A DNA stretch of 64,000 nucleotides, taken from NCBI GenBank assembly GCA_046290465.1, contig JBKAGP010000001.1, positions 5,440,001 through 5,504,000 on the forward strand, in the 5' to 3' direction. Made by a program: the position numbers. Every line of letters starts with the position of its first letter. Position 1 is the stretch's first letter. Of the stretch, positions 18,201-27,200 are shown in pieces. This stretch comes from Planctomycetota bacterium. GTDB lineage: Bacteria; Planctomycetota; UBA1135; UBA2386.

Positions 18201-21200
18201 GGCAAGCTCGTCAAGCAGGGCGAGCGCGAGTCGATCCTCGACAAGGGCGTGCGTGCCGACGGCCGCGACACCTCGACGGTGCGTCCGATCACGATCGAGG
18301 TCGGCGTGCTGCCGCGCGTGCACGGCTCGGTGCTGTTCACCCGCGGCGAGACGCAGGCGCTCGGCGTCGTCACGCTCGGCGGCACCGATGACCAGCAGAT
18401 CATCGACGGCCTGATGCCGGAGCCGCGCAAGCGCTTCCTGCTGCACTACGCGTTCCCGCCGTTCTCGGTCGGGGAGACCAAGCGCATGCTGGCGCCCGGT
18501 CGCCGCGAGATCGGCCACGGCGCGCTCGCCGAGCGCGGCCTCGAGCCGCTGCTGCCGAGCCTCGAAGAGTTCCCCTACACGATCCGCGTCACCAGCGAGA
18601 TCATGGAGTCGAACGGCTCGTCGTCGATGGCCACGGCCTGCGCCGGCACGCTGTCGATGATGGACGCCGGGGTGCCGATCAAGCAGCCGGTCGCGGGCAT
18701 CGCGATGGGCCTGGTGATGGAGGGCAAGGACTATGCGATCCTGTCCGACATCCTCGGCAGCGAGGACGCGTGCGGCGACATGGACTTCAAGGTCGTCGGC
18801 ACCGGGCGCGGCATCACCGCGCTGCAGATGGACATCAAGTGCGAGGGCCTGACCCGAGAGATCCTCGCGGAAGCGCTCGAGCAGGCCAAGGAAGGCCGTC
18901 TGCACATCCTGCGGGAGATGCTCAAGGCGCTGCGTTCGCCGCGCAAGCAGCTCAGCCCGAACGCGCCGCGACTCGAGTCGGTGCAGGTGCCGAGCGAGAA
19001 GATCGGCCTGATCATCGGCCCCGGCGGCAAGAACATCCGTTCGATGCAGGAGGAGTACGAGGTCAAGATCTCGATCGAGGACAGCGGCCTCTGCACGATC
19101 ACCGGCGTCAACGGCGAGAAGGTCGACAAGTGCCTCGAGCACATCAAGGCGATGACCGCCGAGGTCGAACTCGGCACCGTCTACACCGGCCGCGTCACGG
19201 CGATCAAGGAGTTCGGCGCGTTCGTCGAGATCCTGCCGGGCCAGGAAGGCCTGGTGCACGTCAGTGAGCTCTCCAACGAGTTCATCCGGGCGGTCACCGA
19301 CGTCGTGCGCATCGGCGATGAGGTCGAGGTCAAGGTCATCGCGATCGACGACTTCGGCAAGGTCAAGCTGAGCCGCAAGGCGCTGATGGAGCCCGCCGAG
19401 GGCGGCGCCGAAGGTGGGGACGAGGGCGACGAAGGCCCGCGTGGCCGCCGCCCGCGTCGCGACGACGAAGGCGAGGAGCGTCCGCGTCGCTCGCGCGAGG
19501 AGCGTGGCGATCGCGGCGATCGCGAAGAGCGCCGGCCGCGCCGTAGCCGCGAGTGGGACGAAGAGGGCGAAGGTCGCGAAGAGCGCCCGGCCCGTGGTCG
19601 CGGCCCGCGCCGCGACGACGAGGTCGAGGATCGTCCGCGCCGCCCGGCGCGCGACGAGGACGGGGAGCGCGAGGAGCGCCGCCCGCGCCGCGGTCGCCGT
19701 GACGATCGCGACGACGAGGTCGAGGCCCGCGACGACGCGCCGCGCCGCGGCCGTCGCCCGCGTCGCGACGACGAAGGTGAGGATCGCCCGCGCCGTCCGC
19801 GTCGCGACGACGAAGGTGAGGATCGTCCGCGCCGTCCGCGTCGCGACGACGAAGGTGAGGATCGTCCGCGCCGTCCGCGTCGTGACGACCAAGGTGAGGA
19901 TCGTCCGCGCCGTCCGCGTCGCGACGACCAAGGTGAGGATCGTCCGCGCCGTCCGCGTCGCGACGACGCCGGGGACGACCGTCCGCGCCGCTCGCGTCGC
20001 GACGACGACGAGGATCGCCCGCGCCGCCCGCGCCGCGATGACGCCGGGGACGACCGCCCGCGCCGCGACGACGACGACGATCGCCCGCGCCGTTCGCGCC
20101 GGGACGACGAGGGCGACGAGCGCCCGCGCCGTTCGCGTCGCCGCGACGAAGGTGAGGATCGCCCGCGCCGTCCGCGCCGCGACGACGAAGACGAGCGCCC
20201 GAGCCGCCGCGGTGGCCGCAGCTCGTCGATGCCGATGGCCGAGTTCGACGAAGGCGGCAAGGAAGCCGGCTTCGGCGGCGAGCCCGAGCTGGAGTCGATC
20301 GACAGCGTGATCGGCGATGGCGAGGAGCGTCCGCGCCGCGGTCGTGGCCGCCGCCCGCGCCGCCGCGACTGATCGGAACCCCGCGGCGCGCTGTCGAGCG
20401 CGCCGCCGACTGGGCCGCCCGGGCGATGCGCATCAGCGCATCCCGGGCCCGATCCTCAGGCCGGTCGCTTGTCGGCCAGGCCACTTCGCGACTAGCATGC
20501 CGCGACCTCGATGGTCCGCATGCTGCTCACGACGCTGCTGGTCACCGCCCTGGCGGGGACCAGTTCTGGCCAGAACACCTCCGATCCGCAGGGGCCGGAA
20601 TTGGTCGCCAGCCGTTTCACCCCGGTCGTCGACGGCGACCTGGCGGATTGGAAGGCCTTTACTGGGAACGGCTTCGGGCGTGACCAGATCTTCGAGGGCG
20701 CCGACAAGTGGAAGAGCGGCAAGGACCTCTCGGCCAATTTATTGGTCAGCTGGGACAACAACCGGCTCTACCTCGCCGGCACGGTCCGGGACGACCAGTT
20801 CGCCGCAGACGAACTCGCCGCGCAGCGTCAGGTCGACTGCATCGAGGTCCACGTCGGCGGCGACACCCGCGACGCGGCGACCCGCACCGAGCGCAGCGTG
20901 CTGCGGCTGTTCCCGATGCAGGCGCACCGGCCGTGGGCGTGGGGCGGCGGCCAGCGCGCGGCCGTCGGTGAGGAGCCGGTCCAGCAGATCACCCAGCTGG
21001 CCGGCCTGACGGTCGTCGGCAAGCAGCTCGACGCGACCTCGTACCAGTTCGAGGCGGCGATCCCGTTCCATCACTTCCCGAACCTGCGCCCCGGCACCAC
21101 CAGCTTCGGGTTCGATCTGGCCCTGCGCGACCACGACCTCGCCGGAGGTGGCGGCGGCACGTCGATGTCGTGGAGCCGCACCGACCCGTTCTTCGGGCCG

Positions 21201-24200: not shown

Positions 24201-27200
24201 ACGGCCGCCGACGCGGTGGTCGCGACGATGCTCGACGACAGCGGCACGGCGCTGGTCGTGCACAGCGACGGCGAGGTCGTCGGCGAACGGATCGAGCTCG
24301 GCGGCTTCGCGATCGTCTCGCTCGGCGGCCCGTTCTGTGCGCGCGCTCGCAGCGGCAGCCTGCCGCCGCCGTGGAGCGACGCGCTGCCGCAATCGGGTTC
24401 GGTGCTCGGCTTGCCGATCGTGTTCGCCGGCCAGACGCGTGGCGTGGTCCTGCTCGGCTTCGACCTGGGCCACCCGTCGCCGGTCGACCTGGAGCTGTTG
24501 ACGACGGTGGTCGCGCAGGCGGCGTCGGCGTGTGAGCGATCGCAGCTGCAGCGGCTGGCGGTGCAGGATCCGGTGACCGGAGCGTTTGCGACCGACTACT
24601 TCCGTCGCCGCGTCGTCGACGAGGTGTCGCTGGCGCAGCACGGCGGCCATCCGTTCGCCCTGCTCGCGTTCCGCGTCTCCGAGCGCAACCGCAGCGCGCT
24701 GCGGCTGCAGCGGTTCGCCCACCTGCTCGGCGAACGGGTCGCCGACCGCGGCGTCGTCGGGCACGGCGAGGGAGGTCGCTTCTACGTGGCGCTGCCGGGT
24801 GTCGATCGCAGCGACGCCGAACTGGTGCGCCAGGGCGTCGCGGCGGACTGGCGCGAGGAGGGGCGGCGCGACGGCATCGAGGCCGGTGGCGCCGCGTTCG
24901 GCAGCGCGGTCGTGGTGTTCCCCGAGGAGGCGGCGTCGGCCGAGTTCCTGTTCGAGGCGGTGCGCGCACAGCTCGCCAAGGATCCGGTGCGCGACGCGGT
25001 CGAGGCCGAGTCCGACGCCAGCCTGCTGCGCGCCGGCGTGACCGCGGTCAGCGCCGCGATGCGTCCGGTCTACGGCACGCTGCGGCGCGTCGCGCCGACC
25101 GACCTGCCGATCCTGCTCGAGGGCGAGACCGGCGTCGGCAAGGAGGTGCTGACCAACCTGGTGCACCGCTGGAGCCGCCGCGCCCGCGGGCCGCTGGTCA
25201 AGGTGCACTGCGCGTCGCTGTCCGAGACCCTGCTCGCGAGCGAACTGTTCGGCCACGAGCGCGGCGCGTTCACCGGCGCGGACCGACGCAAGGTCGGCCG
25301 CTTCGAGCAGGCGAGCGGCGGCACGCTGTTCCTCGACGAGGTCGGCGAGATCCCGCTCGACGTGCAGGTCGCGCTGCTGCGAGCACTGCAGGAAGGCGAG
25401 ATCGATCGCGTCGGCGGCACCGAGCCGGTCCAGGTCGACGTGCGCGTCATCGCGGCGACCAACCGCGACATGAAGCAGATGGTCGCGGACGGCCGGTTCC
25501 GGGAGGACCTGTACTATCGCCTGCAGGGCATGGTCGTGGTCGTGCCACCGCTGCGCGACCGCCGCGAGGAGTTGCCGCCGCTGGTCGAGCGGTTCCGGCA
25601 GGAGATCGTCGCCGACGGCCACGCGCCGGCGCGCGAGCTGTCCACGGGTGCGCTCGACGAGCTCTACCGGCAGGAGTGGCCGGGCAACATCCGGCAACTG
25701 CGCACGACGGTGTTCCGGGCGCTGGTGCTGGCGCGTGGGGCGGTCGTGCGCCAGCACGACGTGCTGGCGGCGCTCGCGGGCGGGGCGGCGGCTCCGGAGC
25801 TGCCGGATGCGGTCACGGTCCCGCCCGCCGAGCCGGTGGCTCCCGGCGGGTCGGCCGAGTCGGGCCCGGTCATCGAAGGGGCGGCCGCCGAAGAACCGCT
25901 GGCCGGGACCGCGCCGCCGGCCGGGATCGCCGTCGAGCCCGCTGGTGCGGAGGCGCCAGCGAGGATCCCGCGCCCTGCCGGGGATCCCGACGGTGCGGCC
26001 CCCGAAGTGTCGCGCAATCCGGCGGTCGAGGCCAAGGCGGTCGAGGTACCGCGGCCGGATGCGACGGTTCCGGATCGCGAATCCGGTGTGGCCGAATCCC
26101 ATTCCGAGCCCGACCCGGCCGATCTCTCGCCACGTCTCAGGGGGCTGCTATCCCTGATCCGGGAGCGGGGCCGATGCACCACGCAGGAGCACATGGCCAA
26201 TTCGGGAGTGTCTCACCGGACGGCGCTGCGTGACCTGCAGGCGCTTGTCTCGCAGGGGTTTATCGAGCGTGTCGGGGTTCGTCGGGGAGCCTGGTATCGG
26301 CTTTCGGCCGGCGTGACCGATTCTGCGTCCGATTGAATCCACAGCGTGGCCAGTTCTGTCCACATCTCGCCAAGGGTGTGGCCATTACTTTTTCTGAAGT
26401 CGTAGAAGCCTTTCCCGCAACAGGTTGGCGGAGGATTCGTCCGATTGGCCGATTGCAGGCCCGAAGCTTGCTCATCCGGCATGCAGCGATTGGCCGAATC
26501 TCCAACCGGGTCAGCGGCCGCCGAACGCCACAGCACCACGCAACGCGAACCACGCAACGCCACGCGACACAGTCATGCGCACCAACCTGATCGTCAGCTT
26601 GTTCCTCACCACCTTCCTGGCCGCGACGGCTTCTGCCCAGGTCTCCCTGAAGAAGAAGGCGGTGGTCTACGTCGGCAGCGCAGCCAATACGTCCGCGCCC
26701 GCCACGCTGGTCGCGAAAAAGGTGCGCTCGGCCACTCCTGAGTGGAAGAAGATCAAGAGCGACGGGATCGACCCGGACTCGGCTCGCGGCAAGCAGCTGA
26801 TCACCAAGATGAACAAGCGCATCCGCAAGGCGGTCAAGGCAGTCGCCGACAGCGAGAGCCGCGACATGGTGACGCGCAAGATGGACCTGCGGGACGACCA
26901 GGGTCGCGAGGTCGTCGACCTGACCGATCTGGTCATCGCCGAGATCGAGGCGTAGGGCGGTCGTCGGGGAACCCGGTTTGCGCAGTTGCGAGGCGCCGAA
27001 AGCCTCGCGCAGATCCTTCATCTGCTCCACAATCTCCGTCCGTGCCACGTCTCGATCTTCTCTGGCCCGCGCTGCGCACGGGGGCCTGGGCCTCGGCGCT
27101 GCTGGCGTTGGGTTGCGTCAACGCCGGCCCGCCCAAGCGTGTCGCCGAGACCCGCGTCGAGGGCGCGGTCTTCGGTGGTTCGCGGAGTGCCGGCCCGGTC

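What a model noticed while it worked through the whole genome (the two positions that open the first line are those of the whole stretch)
20511..26336. 1941-aa membrane-embedded sigma-54 activator with a periplasmic CBM9 sensor
g04295 joins, in one chain, a signal peptide, a CBM9 carbohydrate-binding module, ~1000 residues with four more hydrophobic helices, a HAMP domain, a sigma-54 AAA+ activator domain and a C-terminal HTH. I read it as a one-component, membrane-tethered enhancer-binding protein that senses an extracellular polysaccharide and switches on sigma-54 promoters directly from the membrane, without a kinase. Enhancer-binding proteins are taken to be soluble hexamers, so a family of membrane-integral ones would need a new model of how they reach their enhancers.
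Evidence so far: Pfam: CBM9_1 65-223, HAMP 1144-1194, Sigma54_activat 1513-1674, HTH_DeoR 1875-1921; hydrophobic 19-mers at 255, 291, 799, 831 and 1117, the last right before HAMP. Full-length co-linear orthologues of 1.82-1.96 kaa without stops in 8 of 24 other genomes of the order (31-56% identity over residues ~30-1940; call 114). Two sigma-54 genes (g00877, g04869) and 29 activator-domain proteins in the genome.
(Added by a program. Inside this text positions count along the whole contig: contig position 5,440,001 is position 1 of the stretch shown here. "Call 12" and the like, gene names such as g00115 and contig names such as C1 are that model's own, and its searches are not shown. The text may have been shortened before it was handed on; [...] marks where a part breaks off. 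The agent that wrote the report below was given it as the finding of a first reader that could run no searches.)

Follow-up and report, generated by a model that had tools for sequence, protein, structure and literature searches.

The report
Membrane-embedded sigma-54 activator beside its target
A planctomycete encodes a 1,941-residue transcription activator that appears to sit in the cell membrane with large sensor domains outside, next to what look like its own DNA sites, a sigma-54 promoter and a small secretion-pore operon; no protein of this type has been studied experimentally.

Summary
Window 20511-26336 (+) is one real gene (GC3 0.93).

Predicted order of parts:
- signal peptide, then CBM9-family domain
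- two membrane helices (TM)
- PDC-type sensor with two inserted jelly-roll sandwiches
- two TM, then dCache, then one TM
- HAMP, GAF, a degenerate GGDEF
- sigma-54 AAA+ domain with intact GAFTGA
- disordered linker, then winged helix

Helix parity, basic cytoplasmic loops and three extracytoplasmic-type folds all place the sensors outside and the ATPase inside.

The family is narrow. It occurs in 3 of 10 families of one planctomycete order. A whole-library profile search gave 75 hits, and every full-length hit examined was an activator.

New here:
- Synteny pnp, activator, small secreted protein, secretin, GspK-like gene is conserved.
- 17 of 18 loci carry a GG-N8-TTGC element within 350 nt after the activator's stop codon (about 0.1 expected per window).
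- Lineage-specific TGGCnnA repeats surround that element, and they change together with the recognition helix.

The polysaccharide ligand is unproven, because the CBM9 sugar-stacking tryptophan pair is not conserved. Whether the protein acts at the membrane or after cleavage is open.

No paper describing an integral-membrane activator of this class was found. This scan had already met the family in another genome, and other membrane-spanning activators elsewhere.

The parts
20472..20478 (-). One copy of the TGGCCGA-type motif 33 nt upstream of the activator's start codon. It may be an autoregulatory site.
   Evidence: Lineage-matched copies lie just upstream of the activator start in L112, L114, L116, L118 and L119 too. 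The windows after the pnp stop hold 29 copies in 16 windows.
20511..26336 (+). Gene for the 1941-aa membrane-integral sigma-54 enhancer-binding protein
   Evidence: Conserved full-length in 18 other genomes of the order and in 80 protein clusters of 90% identity.
20511..20570 (+). Signal-peptide-like N-terminus (residues 1-20)
   Evidence: Read directly from the sequence. Hydrophobic N-termini ending in A-Q or A-x-A are seen in the orthologues. No dedicated signal-peptide predictor was available.
20625..21251 (+). Periplasmic domain 1, a CBM9-family beta-sandwich (about residues 39-247)
   Evidence: Pfam CBM9_1 in 18 of 18 orthologues, best E 2.2e-19. The profile matches PDB 1i82 (Thermotoga Xyn10A CBM9-2) at E 6.1e-15 over chain residues 9-187 of 189. 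The stacking tryptophan pair is not conserved.
21279..21449 (+). TM1 (about 257-277), arginine-rich cytoplasmic loop, TM2 (about 293-313)
   Evidence: Hydropathy peaks of 2.45 and 2.06; 5 K/R residues in the loop. Conserved in position across 18 orthologues.
21450..22907 (+). Periplasmic domain 2 (residues 314-799): a PDC/sCache-like sensor whose helix and C-terminal alpha/beta part are interrupted by two jelly-roll (CBM-like) beta-sandwiches
   Evidence: AlphaFold2 model with pLDDT 88.6 and pTM 0.83. VIA-align gave WalK sensor 4ywz Z 9.0; PhoQ, DcuS, CitA and CpxA Z about 7 spanning model residues 1-486; CBM8 7t7z Z 8.5 and CBM15 1gny Z 8.4 on residues 55-375. Foldseek gave tandem CBM22 4xup at E 1e-4 with TM-scores below 0.25. 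Z of 7-10 is middling.
22908..23066 (+). TM3 (about 800-820), short basic loop (NLRFR), TM4 (about 830-852)
23067..23876 (+). Periplasmic domain 3 (residues 853-1122): dCache (double PDC) ligand-binding domain
   Evidence: AlphaFold2 model with pLDDT 90.9 and pTM 0.86. Foldseek found 102 PDB matches at E <= 0.001; nearly all of those listed are chemoreceptor or kinase dCache domains (9heh 8e-8, 7prq 1.1e-7, Tlp3 TM-score 0.5).
23877..24092 (+). TM5 (about 1123-1145) running directly into HAMP (1144-1194)
   Evidence: Hydropathy peak 2.73. Pfam HAMP 52.4 bits. PDB HAMP matches at about 4e-6.
24153..25010 (+). GAF-like domain (about 1215-1340) and degenerate GGDEF domain (about 1342-1500)
   Evidence: The profile of this region matches GGDEF structures at E 2.8e-19 and GAF at 6e-7 to 7e-5. 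The GG[DE]EF signature is absent in 18 of 18 orthologues and in 10 of 10 more distant members.
25047..25784 (+). Sigma-54 interaction AAA+ domain and lid (1513-1758) with Walker A, Walker B and GAFTGA (1585-1590)
   Evidence: These residues are invariant or nearly so in 31 sequences. GAFTGA is exact in 17 of 18 orthologues; one has GSFTGA.
25788..26126 (+). Low-complexity P/A/E-rich linker (about 1760-1872)
   Evidence: 112 residues, 79% P, A, E, G, S, T or D. Length is 29-136 residues in the orthologues.
26133..26300 (+). C-terminal winged helix-turn-helix (DeoR-like), not the Fis-type HTH usual in this class
   Evidence: Pfam HTH_DeoR 28.1 bits. The profile matches wHTH structures (3lmm 1.8e-6). 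The recognition helix changes together with the DNA motif.
26347..26497 (+). Candidate enhancer: copies of TGGCCA or TGGCSGA at 26347-26352, 26379-26384, 26426-26432, 26446-26452 and 26491-26497
   Evidence: Sequence. The motif TGGC[CG][ACG]A occurs 45 times in 18 post-stop windows against 9.0 expected, but the pattern was defined after looking at the sequences. 6-mer enrichment is.
26360..26381 (+). Terminator-like hairpin with a T-rich tail, 24 nt after the activator's stop codon
   Evidence: The scan found 2 sites in the region against 1.9 expected, so only its position speaks for it.
26457..26472 (+). Sigma-54 promoter-like -24/-12 element (GG at 26458-26459, TTGC at 26468-26471)
   Evidence: The same GG-N8-TTGC element lies within 350 nt after the stop codon in 17 of 18 loci.
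26575..26955 (+). First gene after the promoter: a 126-aa secreted protein with a weak OmpH-like match
   Evidence: GC3 0.91. The motif VV.YGS.SNTS.PAT is seen in most orthologous loci. Pfam OmpH E 0.0056, below its cut-off.
26990..28529 (+). Secretin gene. The start is uncertain, and a lipobox-like LALGC is present.
   Evidence: Pfam Secretin 130 bits. NCBIfam GspD 142 bits against a cut-off of 351. Syntenic in 16 of 17 fetched loci.
29878..31524 (+). GspK-like minor-pseudopilin gene (548 aa), the last conserved member of the module
   Evidence: Pfam T2SSK 21.8 bits here and 24.3 bits in L113, against a cut-off of 24.2. NCBIfam GspK 28.4 bits against a cut-off of 130. Syntenic in 14 of 17 loci; the other 3 end earlier.

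Best explanation
The gene encodes an integral-membrane, one-component bacterial enhancer-binding protein.

Predicted topology: a signal peptide and five membrane helices expose three sensor regions to the periplasm. These are a CBM9-family sandwich, a PDC sensor carrying two jelly-roll inserts, and a dCache domain. The last helix feeds into HAMP, GAF and a catalytically dead GGDEF domain. These in turn control a sigma-54 AAA+ domain and a winged-helix DNA-binding domain on a flexible linker.

Proposed mechanism (inferred):
1. A periplasmic signal, possibly a glycan, is sensed by the dCache domain and/or the sandwiches.
2. The signal passes through TM5 and HAMP, as in chemoreceptors and membrane diguanylate cyclases.
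3. The AAA+ domains are released to assemble into an active ring.
4. The winged helix holds the protein on TGGCnnA repeats just downstream of its own gene.
5. From there the ring opens the adjacent sigma-54 promoter.
6. The operon for a small periplasmic protein, an orphan secretin and a GspK-like pseudopilin is switched on.

Shown by computation: domain identities, conserved topology signals, conserved synteny, and conserved promoter and repeat motifs.

Inferred: the ligand, oligomerisation, DNA binding, and activity while still in the membrane.
For: Functional activator:
- Sigma54_activat E 6.4e-66 plus the AAA lid.
- Walker A, Walker B, GAFTGA and the sensor-II region are invariant or nearly invariant in 31 sequences.
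- GAFTGA is exact in 17 of 18 orthologues.
- The genome has 2 rpoN matches.

Topology:
- Five hydropathy peaks of 2.06-2.73. K/R-rich loops lie after TM1, between TM3 and TM4, and after TM5.
- These features are conserved in 18 orthologues.
- The three regions predicted to be outside have folds typical of extracytoplasmic sensors: CBM9, PDC plus jelly rolls and dCache.
- HAMP starts at the end of TM5.

Target:
- The order pnp, activator, secretin, GspK-like gene is kept across three families of the order. Secretin is present in 16 of 17 loci and the GspK-like gene in 14 of 17; the missing ones fall at contig or fetch ends.
- GG-N8-TTGC lies on the coding strand within 350 nt after the stop codon in 17 of 18 loci. 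The background gives 0.10 per window. Control windows gave 2 of 16, 1 of 17 and 2 of 15.
- TGGC[CG][ACG]A occurs 45 times against 9.0 expected in the same windows.
- The motif variant tracks the recognition helix: VSHRT with TGGCCGA, VSP/QRT with TGGCGAA or TGGCGGA, VSRRT with TGGCGCA.
- A conserved small secreted protein gene follows the promoter.

One chain, always:
- The domain-2 profile searched against 1.84 billion representatives gave 75 hits.
- The hits of 1,491-1,952 aa carry domain 2 at about residues 270-850. Of 15 weaker hits examined, 10 have the sigma-54 domain. No kinase or other output was seen.
Against: - No experiment exists. No usable RNA evidence was found.
- Topology rests on hydropathy, charge and fold type; no dedicated TM or signal-peptide predictor was available.
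- The promoter and repeat statistics treat related genomes as independent, and the repeat pattern was chosen after looking at the sequences.
- The repeats contain TGGC, the core of the -24 element itself. Some lie inside terminator-like hairpins (L112, L120).
- One of 18 loci (L121) lacks the promoter pattern. Two (L117, L123) lack the repeat pattern.
- Across the whole window, sigma-54-like matches are not enriched: 54 found against 62 expected.
- The CBM9 stacking tryptophans are not conserved, so glycan sensing is a guess.
- A bEBP held at the membrane is inactive in the one studied case, RedR2 with BtdS (passages of PMC10084136).
- The secretin and GspK-like genes score far below NCBI's equivalog cut-offs, so what the operon builds is unclear.
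Confidence: 0.6

Rival explanations
1. The membrane form is a latent precursor. On signal, a protease cuts the chain after TM5 or within the HAMP-GAF-GGDEF stalk. A soluble fragment carrying the AAA+ domain and winged helix is released, forms an ordinary cytoplasmic hexamer and activates the same promoter.
For: - Classical enhancer-binding proteins work as soluble rings.
- Membrane sequestration silences the bEBP RedR2 (passages of PMC10084136).
- Cleavage-dependent activation has been proposed for the membrane regulator CadC (PMC11484849; only the search listing with title and start of abstract was seen).
- A variable, disordered segment of 29-136 residues exists in the chain.
Against: - No protease gene belongs to the conserved module. 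The module ends after the GspK-like gene, and the flanking genes are housekeeping.
- The disordered segment lies between the AAA+ domain and the winged helix, so a cut there would separate ATPase from DNA binding.
- A complete dCache-TM-HAMP-GAF-GGDEF transmission chain is conserved. In its relatives this chain signals by conformational change within an intact protein.
- CadC works while membrane-bound (abstract of PMC7888679).
Confidence: 0.25
2. The protein is primarily a structural or checkpoint component of the secretin/pseudopilus machine. Its periplasmic domains bind the secretin, the small periplasmic protein or the pseudopilus, and so report the assembly state of the machine rather than an external ligand. 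This would be feedback control, loosely comparable to the secretin-triggered Psp response run by the bEBP PspF.
For: - Strict co-inheritance of the activator with the small protein, secretin and GspK-like gene across three families.
- The secretin here has no adjacent ATPase or platform genes, although the genome holds 7 secretins and 13 T2SSE-type ATPases elsewhere.
- The CBM9 sugar-binding residues are not conserved.
Against: - No interaction was tested. Neighbouring genes alone were not judged reason enough for a complex prediction.
- The dCache domain is a typical small-molecule binder.
- Co-inheritance is equally explained by a plain regulator-target relationship.
- The link between PspF and secretin stress is recalled, not taken from a call.
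Confidence: 0.1
3. The AAA+ and winged-helix end is a relic. The protein now works as a sigma-54-independent membrane sensor or repressor that binds the TGGCnnA sites near both ends of its own gene.
For: - Motif copies also lie upstream of the activator's own start codon, where no -24/-12 element was found in most loci.
- The GGDEF domain in the same chain has decayed.
Against: - The ATPase and sigma-54 contact residues are invariant over sequences down to 36% identity, which argues for purifying selection on activator function.
- A -24/-12 element is conserved next to the gene in 17 of 18 loci.
Confidence: 0.05

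Closest known systems
NtrC/NifA/PspF-class bacterial enhancer-binding proteins (Pfam PF00158)
   Same: The central AAA+ domain has Walker A, Walker B, GAFTGA and the lid. It matches NifA, NtrC, NorR and RtcR models over about 250 residues at E 1e-92 to 1e-85. A DNA-binding domain sits at the C-terminus. The target appears to be a neighbouring sigma-54 promoter.
   Different: All full-length NCBIfam scores are far below the equivalog cut-offs, for example NifA 311 against 529. 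The regulatory part is a 1,500-residue polytopic membrane sensor instead of a receiver, GAF, PAS or V4R domain. The DNA-binding domain is a DeoR-like winged helix instead of the Fis-type HTH_8. It is the only one of the genome's 24 strong PF00158 proteins with several TM-like segments; one other, a possibly over-extended open frame of 1,835 aa, has a single one.
ToxR/CadC-type membrane-integrated one-component transcription activators
   Same: Sensor outside, membrane anchor and DNA-binding domain in one chain, with no kinase. The regulated promoter lies next to the regulator gene. They set the precedent that a membrane-bound regulator can find and hold DNA (CadC: abstract of PMC7888679).
   Different: Those proteins have one TM helix and an N-terminal OmpR-type winged helix, and they recruit sigma-70 polymerase (from the listed abstracts, and general knowledge). 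Here there are five helices, the DNA-binding domain is C-terminal, and activation would need an ATP-driven AAA+ ring acting on sigma-54. It is not a member of that family.
dCache-TM-HAMP transmembrane receptors (chemoreceptors such as PctD, TlpQ and Tlp3; membrane HAMP-GAF-GGDEF diguanylate cyclases)
   Same: Residues 830-1500 have the same layout: TM, dCache, TM, HAMP, GAF, GGDEF. The nearest language-model clusters are HAMP/GAF/GGDEF cyclases, with scores of 0.77-0.82, which are leads only.
   Different: The GGDEF signature is lost in all members examined. The output is a transcription-activator ATPase. An extra N-terminal half (CBM9, two TM helices, PDC with jelly rolls, one TM helix) is added.
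DVU0151 family of Desulfovibrio vulgaris (Kazakov et al. 2015, PMC4641369)
   Same: A one-component sigma-54 activator with a long conserved N-terminal region of unknown sensing function and a winged helix instead of a Fis-type HTH. It lies next to a sigma-54 promoter (passages read). Earlier notes of this scan call it membrane-anchored.
   Different: The passages read do not mention a membrane location. DVU0151 has GAFSEA rather than GAFTGA. No sequence comparison with it could be made here. CBM9, dCache, HAMP and GGDEF are not reported for it.
RedR2-BtdS of Aromatoleum anaerobium (PMC10084136)
   Same: It links a bEBP to the cytoplasmic membrane.
   Different: There a separate four-helix membrane protein sequesters a soluble bEBP and so keeps it inactive (passages). 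Here the membrane part is fused to the bEBP.

Membership tests
Bacterial enhancer-binding proteins (sigma-54 activators) | AAA+ domain of the Sigma54_activat type with Walker A and Walker B | tested here: met
   PF00158 at 221.6 bits against a cut-off of 20.2. GETGVGKE and DE are invariant in 31 sequences.
Bacterial enhancer-binding proteins (sigma-54 activators) | GAFTGA loop that contacts sigma-54 | tested here: met
   GAFTGA at residues 1585-1590. Exact in 17 of 18 orthologues. GAFTGA or GAFSGA in 9 of 10 distant members; the tenth is cut off before the loop.
Bacterial enhancer-binding proteins (sigma-54 activators) | Sigma-54 encoded in the genome and a -24/-12 promoter at the target | tested here: met
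   2 rpoN matches. GG-N8-TTGC after the stop codon in 17 of 18 loci. Promoter use was not shown.
Bacterial enhancer-binding proteins (sigma-54 activators) | C-terminal Fis-type HTH (HTH_8) | tested here: not met
   There is no HTH_8 hit. HTH_DeoR/winged helix is found instead. This feature is usual rather than obligatory in the class.
Bacterial enhancer-binding proteins (sigma-54 activators) | ATP-dependent oligomeric ring that remodels the closed complex | not testable with these tools
ToxR/CadC-like membrane-integrated regulators | Single TM helix with an N-terminal OmpR-type winged helix in the cytoplasm | tested here: not met
   Five TM-like segments. The DNA-binding domain is at the C-terminus and is DeoR-like.
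dCache sensor domains | Long N-terminal helix followed by two PDC alpha/beta modules, flanked by TM helices | tested here: met
   Model with pLDDT 90.9. Foldseek probability 1.00 for dozens of dCache structures. TM4 and TM5 flank the domain.
CBM9 carbohydrate-binding modules | Sequence and fold family | tested here: met
   Pfam CBM9_1 in 18 of 18 orthologues. PDB 1i82 at E 6.1e-15.
CBM9 carbohydrate-binding modules | Pair of tryptophans that sandwich the sugar (identity recalled from the Thermotoga CBM9-2 structure paper, not from a call) | tested here: not met
   The first Trp is present in 12 of 18 orthologues and absent in the window protein. The second is absent in 18 of 18.
GGDEF diguanylate cyclases | GG[DE]EF active-site motif | tested here: not met
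   The domain is recognised (E 2.8e-19), but the motif is absent in 18 of 18 orthologues and in 10 of 10 distant members.
Type II secretion system (target operon) | GspD-type secretin and GspK minor pseudopilin at equivalog level, with ATPase and platform genes nearby | tested here: inconclusive
   Secretin domain 130 bits, but GspD model 142 against 351. GspK model 28 against 130. No T2SSE ATPase lies within the window; the nearest is about 160 kb away.

The most novel reading that the evidence does not exclude
An enhancer-binding AAA+ ring that works without ever leaving the membrane. Three HAMP-linked dimers would assemble in the plane of the membrane, much as chemoreceptors form trimers of dimers. 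The winged helices would clamp the enhancer that lies just behind the protein's own gene, so the locus is held at the membrane. The secretin operon would then be transcribed, and its products inserted, at the very spot where the outside signal was sensed. Sensing would thus be coupled in space to the building of a secretion pore.
Probability: 0.35. Interest if true: 0.85.

Novelty: new variant of a known kind. Interest (0 to 1): 0.65.

Why it matters
Sigma-54 activators are textbook soluble ATPase rings, usually driven by a separate kinase. Here one conserved chain appears to connect periplasmic sensor domains, through five membrane helices, to the ATPase.

The predicted enhancer, promoter and a short target operon lie within about 5 kb (26340-31524). 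The whole path from signal to gene could therefore be tested with a few constructs.

Three questions become testable:
- Can an AAA+ activator ring assemble and act on RNA polymerase while tethered to the membrane?
- How does a HAMP signal gate an AAA+ ring?
- What controls an orphan secretin in planctomycetes, whose envelope biology is poorly known?

Together with other membrane-spanning activators noted in this scan, the finding suggests that an unstudied class is common in environmental bacteria.

Tried and rejected
Searches that failed or gave nothing useful:
I repeated it on residues 230-1130.
- (the only genome-contig scan) chose generic AAA+ peptide patterns. It returned 80 ordinary activators and no orthologues. 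One long match, L041, proved to be a normal HAMP kinase gene next to an NtrC-type regulator gene.
- Profile searches of PDB sequences with periplasmic domains 2 and 3 gave nothing significant; the best E-values were 0.096 and 0.0088. Their folds came only from the models.
- Foldseek on domain 2 gave only low whole-model TM-scores, at most 0.23.
- The window-wide sigma-54 pattern search showed no enrichment: 54 found against 62 expected. Only the conserved position gives the promoter weight.
- A second -24/-12-like match at 26967-26981 was not checked in other genomes.

RNA evidence:
- Three RNA-seq runs sharing a species label with a DNA holder gave 0 or 1 laid reads.
- A seawater metatranscriptome gave one 177-nt contig on 26607-26783 with one mismatch. 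That is too little to show transcription.

Literature:
- Five searches for an integral-membrane sigma-54 activator and one on planctomycetes, sigma-54 and secretin found no such description. The library lacks most subscription journals.

Other:
- No c-di-GMP-binding RxxD site is conserved upstream of the GGDEF position, judged by eye on the alignment segment.
- No complex prediction was sent, because no binding claim is made.
- The ESM Atlas look-up scored below 0.9 and gives leads only.

Full report
**Observation**

The window has about 70% G+C. ORF 20511-26336 (+) encodes 1941 residues. Its codon-position GC is 0.76/0.48/0.93, the pattern of real genes here.

NCBIfam models of NifA, RtcR, NtrC and NorR match only the central 250 residues or so, far below their full-length cut-offs. 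So this is an activator of the class but of no named type.

Hydropathy gives five strong 19-mer peaks at residues 257, 295, 803, 833 and 1126. Basic loops follow TM1, lie between TM3 and TM4, and follow TM5.

**Anatomy: periplasmic part**

I cut the protein into regions using 17 orthologous loci and analysed each region separately.

- Residues 21-256 belong to the CBM9 family. All 18 of 18 sequences hit Pfam CBM9_1. Their profile matches the solved CBM9-2 of Thermotoga xylanase 10A (1i82) at E 6.1e-15 over almost the whole chain.
- Residues 314-799 fold with high confidence (pLDDT 88.6, pTM 0.83).
  - The first helix and the last alpha/beta part together resemble single PDC/Cache sensors: WalK Z 9.0; PhoQ, DcuS, CitA and CpxA Z about 7.
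  - Model residues about 55-375 resemble carbohydrate-binding jelly rolls: CBM8 Z 8.5, CBM15 Z 8.4, tandem CBM22 by Foldseek.
  - These Z values are middling and show fold class only.
- Residues 853-1122 are a clear dCache domain (pLDDT 90.9). Foldseek gives probability 1.00 to dozens of chemoreceptor and kinase dCache structures, the best at 8e-8.

**Anatomy: cytoplasmic part**

- The profile of residues 1146-1510 matches HAMP (about 4e-6), GAF (6e-7 to 7e-5) and GGDEF (2.8e-19) structures.
- The GG[DE]EF signature is missing in all 18 orthologues and in 10 more distant members.
- Then come the AAA+ domain, a low-complexity linker (112 residues here, 29-136 in relatives) and a winged helix.

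**Topology**

No dedicated predictor was available. The argument rests on four points.
1. Parity. With the N-terminal signal sequence plus five helices, HAMP, AAA+ and the DNA-binding domain end up inside. This happens only if the CBM9, PDC and dCache regions are outside.
2. The short loops predicted to be inside are rich in arginine.
3. All three regions predicted to be outside have folds typical of extracytoplasmic sensors.
4. The positions of the helices and loops are conserved in 18 sequences down to about 25% identity.

**Family**

- A word-indexed search with residues 230-1130 found 80 clusters. Nearly all are 1,850-2,000 residues long. Those that carry a name are annotated as planctomycete 'sigma 54-interacting transcriptional regulator'.
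- In 61 genomes of the window's order, the sensor part was found in 23, this genome included. By family: f1 9 of 12, f3 3 of 3, f7 10 of 11, and 0 in the other seven families. Eighteen other genomes hold it in open frames of 1875-2019 aa.
- A profile of domain 2 run over 1.84 billion representatives gave only 75 hits (60 at 1e-10 or better).
  - The hits of 1,491-1,952 aa carry domain 2 at about residues 270-850.
  - Of 15 weaker hits examined, 10 have the sigma-54 domain, usually with CBM9, HAMP, GAF and GGDEF.
  - The other 5 are shorter proteins holding only N-terminal parts. Whether they are truncated gene calls cannot be told.
  - No kinase or other output domain appeared.
- In a 31-sequence alignment, Walker A, Walker B, GAFTGA, the sensor-II region and the recognition helix are invariant or nearly so. 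Many periplasmic residues are too.

**Context**

I fetched 20 kb around 17 orthologues.
- The gene order is pnp, activator, a gap of 0.3-1.3 kb, secretin, GspK-like gene.
- pnp is present in 15 of 17 loci, secretin in 16 of 17 (one of them, L118, only by two short matches) and the GspK-like gene in 14 of 17. The missing cases coincide with ends of contigs or of the fetched stretch.
- Beyond the GspK-like gene the neighbours differ and are housekeeping genes.
- In the window, a LamG-like gene on the other strand (28621-29745) is inserted between the secretin and GspK-like genes.

**Promoter**

- On the coding strand within 350 nt after the activator's stop codon, 17 of 18 loci (window included) have GG-N8-TTGC, the -24/-12 core.
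- The same loci give a background of 0.10 per window. Control windows after the pnp, secretin and GspK-like stops gave 2 of 16, 1 of 17 and 2 of 15.
- The genomes are related, so the binomial figure overstates the case. Even so, the intergenic sequences of the three families look too different to align (no alignment was run).
- In the window the element is at 26457-26472. It lies 104 nt upstream of a 126-codon gene for a secreted protein (26575-26955), which is conserved as the first gene after the promoter.
- A terminator-like hairpin at 26360-26381 follows the activator gene.

**Candidate enhancer**

- Short repeats surround the promoter and differ by lineage.
  - TGGCCGA or TGGCCA in the window's subgroup.
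  - TGGCGAA or TGGCGGA in other genera of the same family.
  - TGGCGCA in family f7, often as inverted pairs or at 11-nt spacing.
- Written as TGGC[CG][ACG]A, the motif occurs 45 times in the 18 windows against 9.0 expected. I chose this pattern after seeing the data.
- Copies of the same lineage-specific variant also lie just upstream of the activator's start codon in several loci. This hints at autoregulation.
- The residue after the conserved 'VS' of the recognition helix is H, P/Q or R in exactly these three groups, and the wing differs as well. This is a correlation along the tree, not proof of contact.

**Genome background**

- The genome is one contig of 6.59 Mb with 2 sigma-54 genes and 31 PF00158 matches.
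- Of the 24 strong matches, only this protein has several TM-like segments. One other long open frame has a single one and may be over-extended.
- The genome has 7 secretin and 13 T2SSE-type ATPase matches. None of the latter lies near this secretin.
- The secretin and GspK-like proteins score far below NCBI's equivalog cut-offs, so the machine they belong to is uncertain.

**Mechanism**

The best-supported reading is a one-component, membrane-integral enhancer-binding protein. The stretch TM4-dCache-TM5-HAMP-GAF-GGDEF is the standard transmitter of chemoreceptors and membrane diguanylate cyclases. Fused to an AAA+ domain, it most simply controls ring assembly. The winged helix would bind the adjacent repeats, and the ring would open the neighbouring sigma-54 promoter.

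What is sensed is unknown.
- Three sandwich modules of carbohydrate-binding type hint at a glycan.
- However, the sugar-stacking tryptophans of the solved CBM9 are not conserved (residue roles recalled).
- The dCache domain is the module wired directly to HAMP.

**Rivals**

- Release of the cytoplasmic part by proteolysis cannot be excluded.
  - For it: a membrane-held bEBP is inactive in the RedR2-BtdS system.
  - For it: cleavage has been proposed for CadC (listing only).
  - Against it: an intact, conserved signalling chain and no protease gene in the module.
- A checkpoint role sensing the secretin machine itself is possible but untested.

**Comparison and novelty**

- The central domain is that of a member of the bEBP class. 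The protein works like ToxR/CadC regulators but fails their defining features.
  - CadC finds its DNA by 2D diffusion and capture within minutes (abstract).
  - Here the apparent enhancer is next to the gene.
- Five literature searches found no description of an integral-membrane sigma-54 activator. The Desulfovibrio regulome paper describes DVU0151 as an activator with a long unknown N-terminal region and a winged helix; the passages read do not mention the membrane.
- Sequence databases hold other, unrelated examples. One is an 852-residue TM-HAMP-PAS-AAA+-HTH_8 protein.
- Earlier notes of this scan report this same family in another planctomycete genome, and other membrane-spanning activators elsewhere. 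I reached the enhancer, promoter and operon layout independently before reading them.
- I therefore class it as a new variant of a known kind: real, conserved and experimentally untouched, but neither unique nor first seen here.

**Limits**

All function is inferred. Supplements of the papers were not consulted.

Noticed in passing
window 44665-45834 (-) and 52467-54764 (-): Genes for both subunits of an archaeal-type topoisomerase VI, about 6.6 kb apart in this planctomycete. Subunit A has Toprim/TP6A hits at 1.4e-58; subunit B has the transducer at 1.3e-53 plus HATPase_c.
   Followed up: no
window 41912-44632 (+) and 38-2788 (+): A 906-aa protein joins ECF-type sigma-70 regions 2 and 4 to dioxygenase-like and CarboxypepD_reg domains. 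A second protein of 916 aa also carries CarboxypepD_reg repeats.
   Followed up: no
window 8826-11540 (-): A Ser/Thr protein kinase domain fused to a C-terminal FGE-sulfatase (formylglycine-generating enzyme-like) domain, 904 aa.
   Followed up: no
window 28621-29745 (-): A secreted LamG/concanavalin-like protein gene is inserted, on the opposite strand, between the secretin and GspK-like genes. In most other genomes these two genes are adjacent. L109 and L110 also have gaps of 3.3 and 1.2 kb there.
   Followed up: partly
own genome G000:C1:6172362-6172841 (+): The second sigma-54 DNA-binding-domain match lies in a stop-free frame of 1009 aa, about twice the usual length of sigma-54. This may be a long N-terminal extension or only an open upstream frame in GC-rich DNA.
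   Followed up: no
window 26967-26981 (+): A second -24/-12-like match (GGGAACCCGGTTTGC) lies between the small secreted-protein gene and the secretin gene. Its conservation was not checked.
   Followed up: no
L118-L124 (family f7 loci), between pnp and the activator gene: A cold-shock-protein-like gene (translation contains VKWFDNRKGFGF) sits between pnp and the activator in the f7 loci L118, L120, L122, L123 and L124, but not in the window.
   Followed up: no
L120 just after the pnp stop; L121 about 300-500 nt upstream of the activator start: Tandem repeats: six or seven copies of a 14-nt unit in L120, and several copies of a unit of about 40 nt in L121.
   Followed up: no
window 47540-50243 (+): A periplasmic binding-protein-like gene (PBP_like_2) lies directly upstream of a HAMP-containing methyl-accepting chemotaxis protein gene.
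   Followed up: no
proteins P0138, P0154, P0175: Soluble activators of about 600 aa from metagenomes combine FHA, GGDEF, sigma-54 AAA+ and HTH_8 domains. GGDEF-AAA+ fusions therefore also occur outside the family studied here.
   Followed up: no
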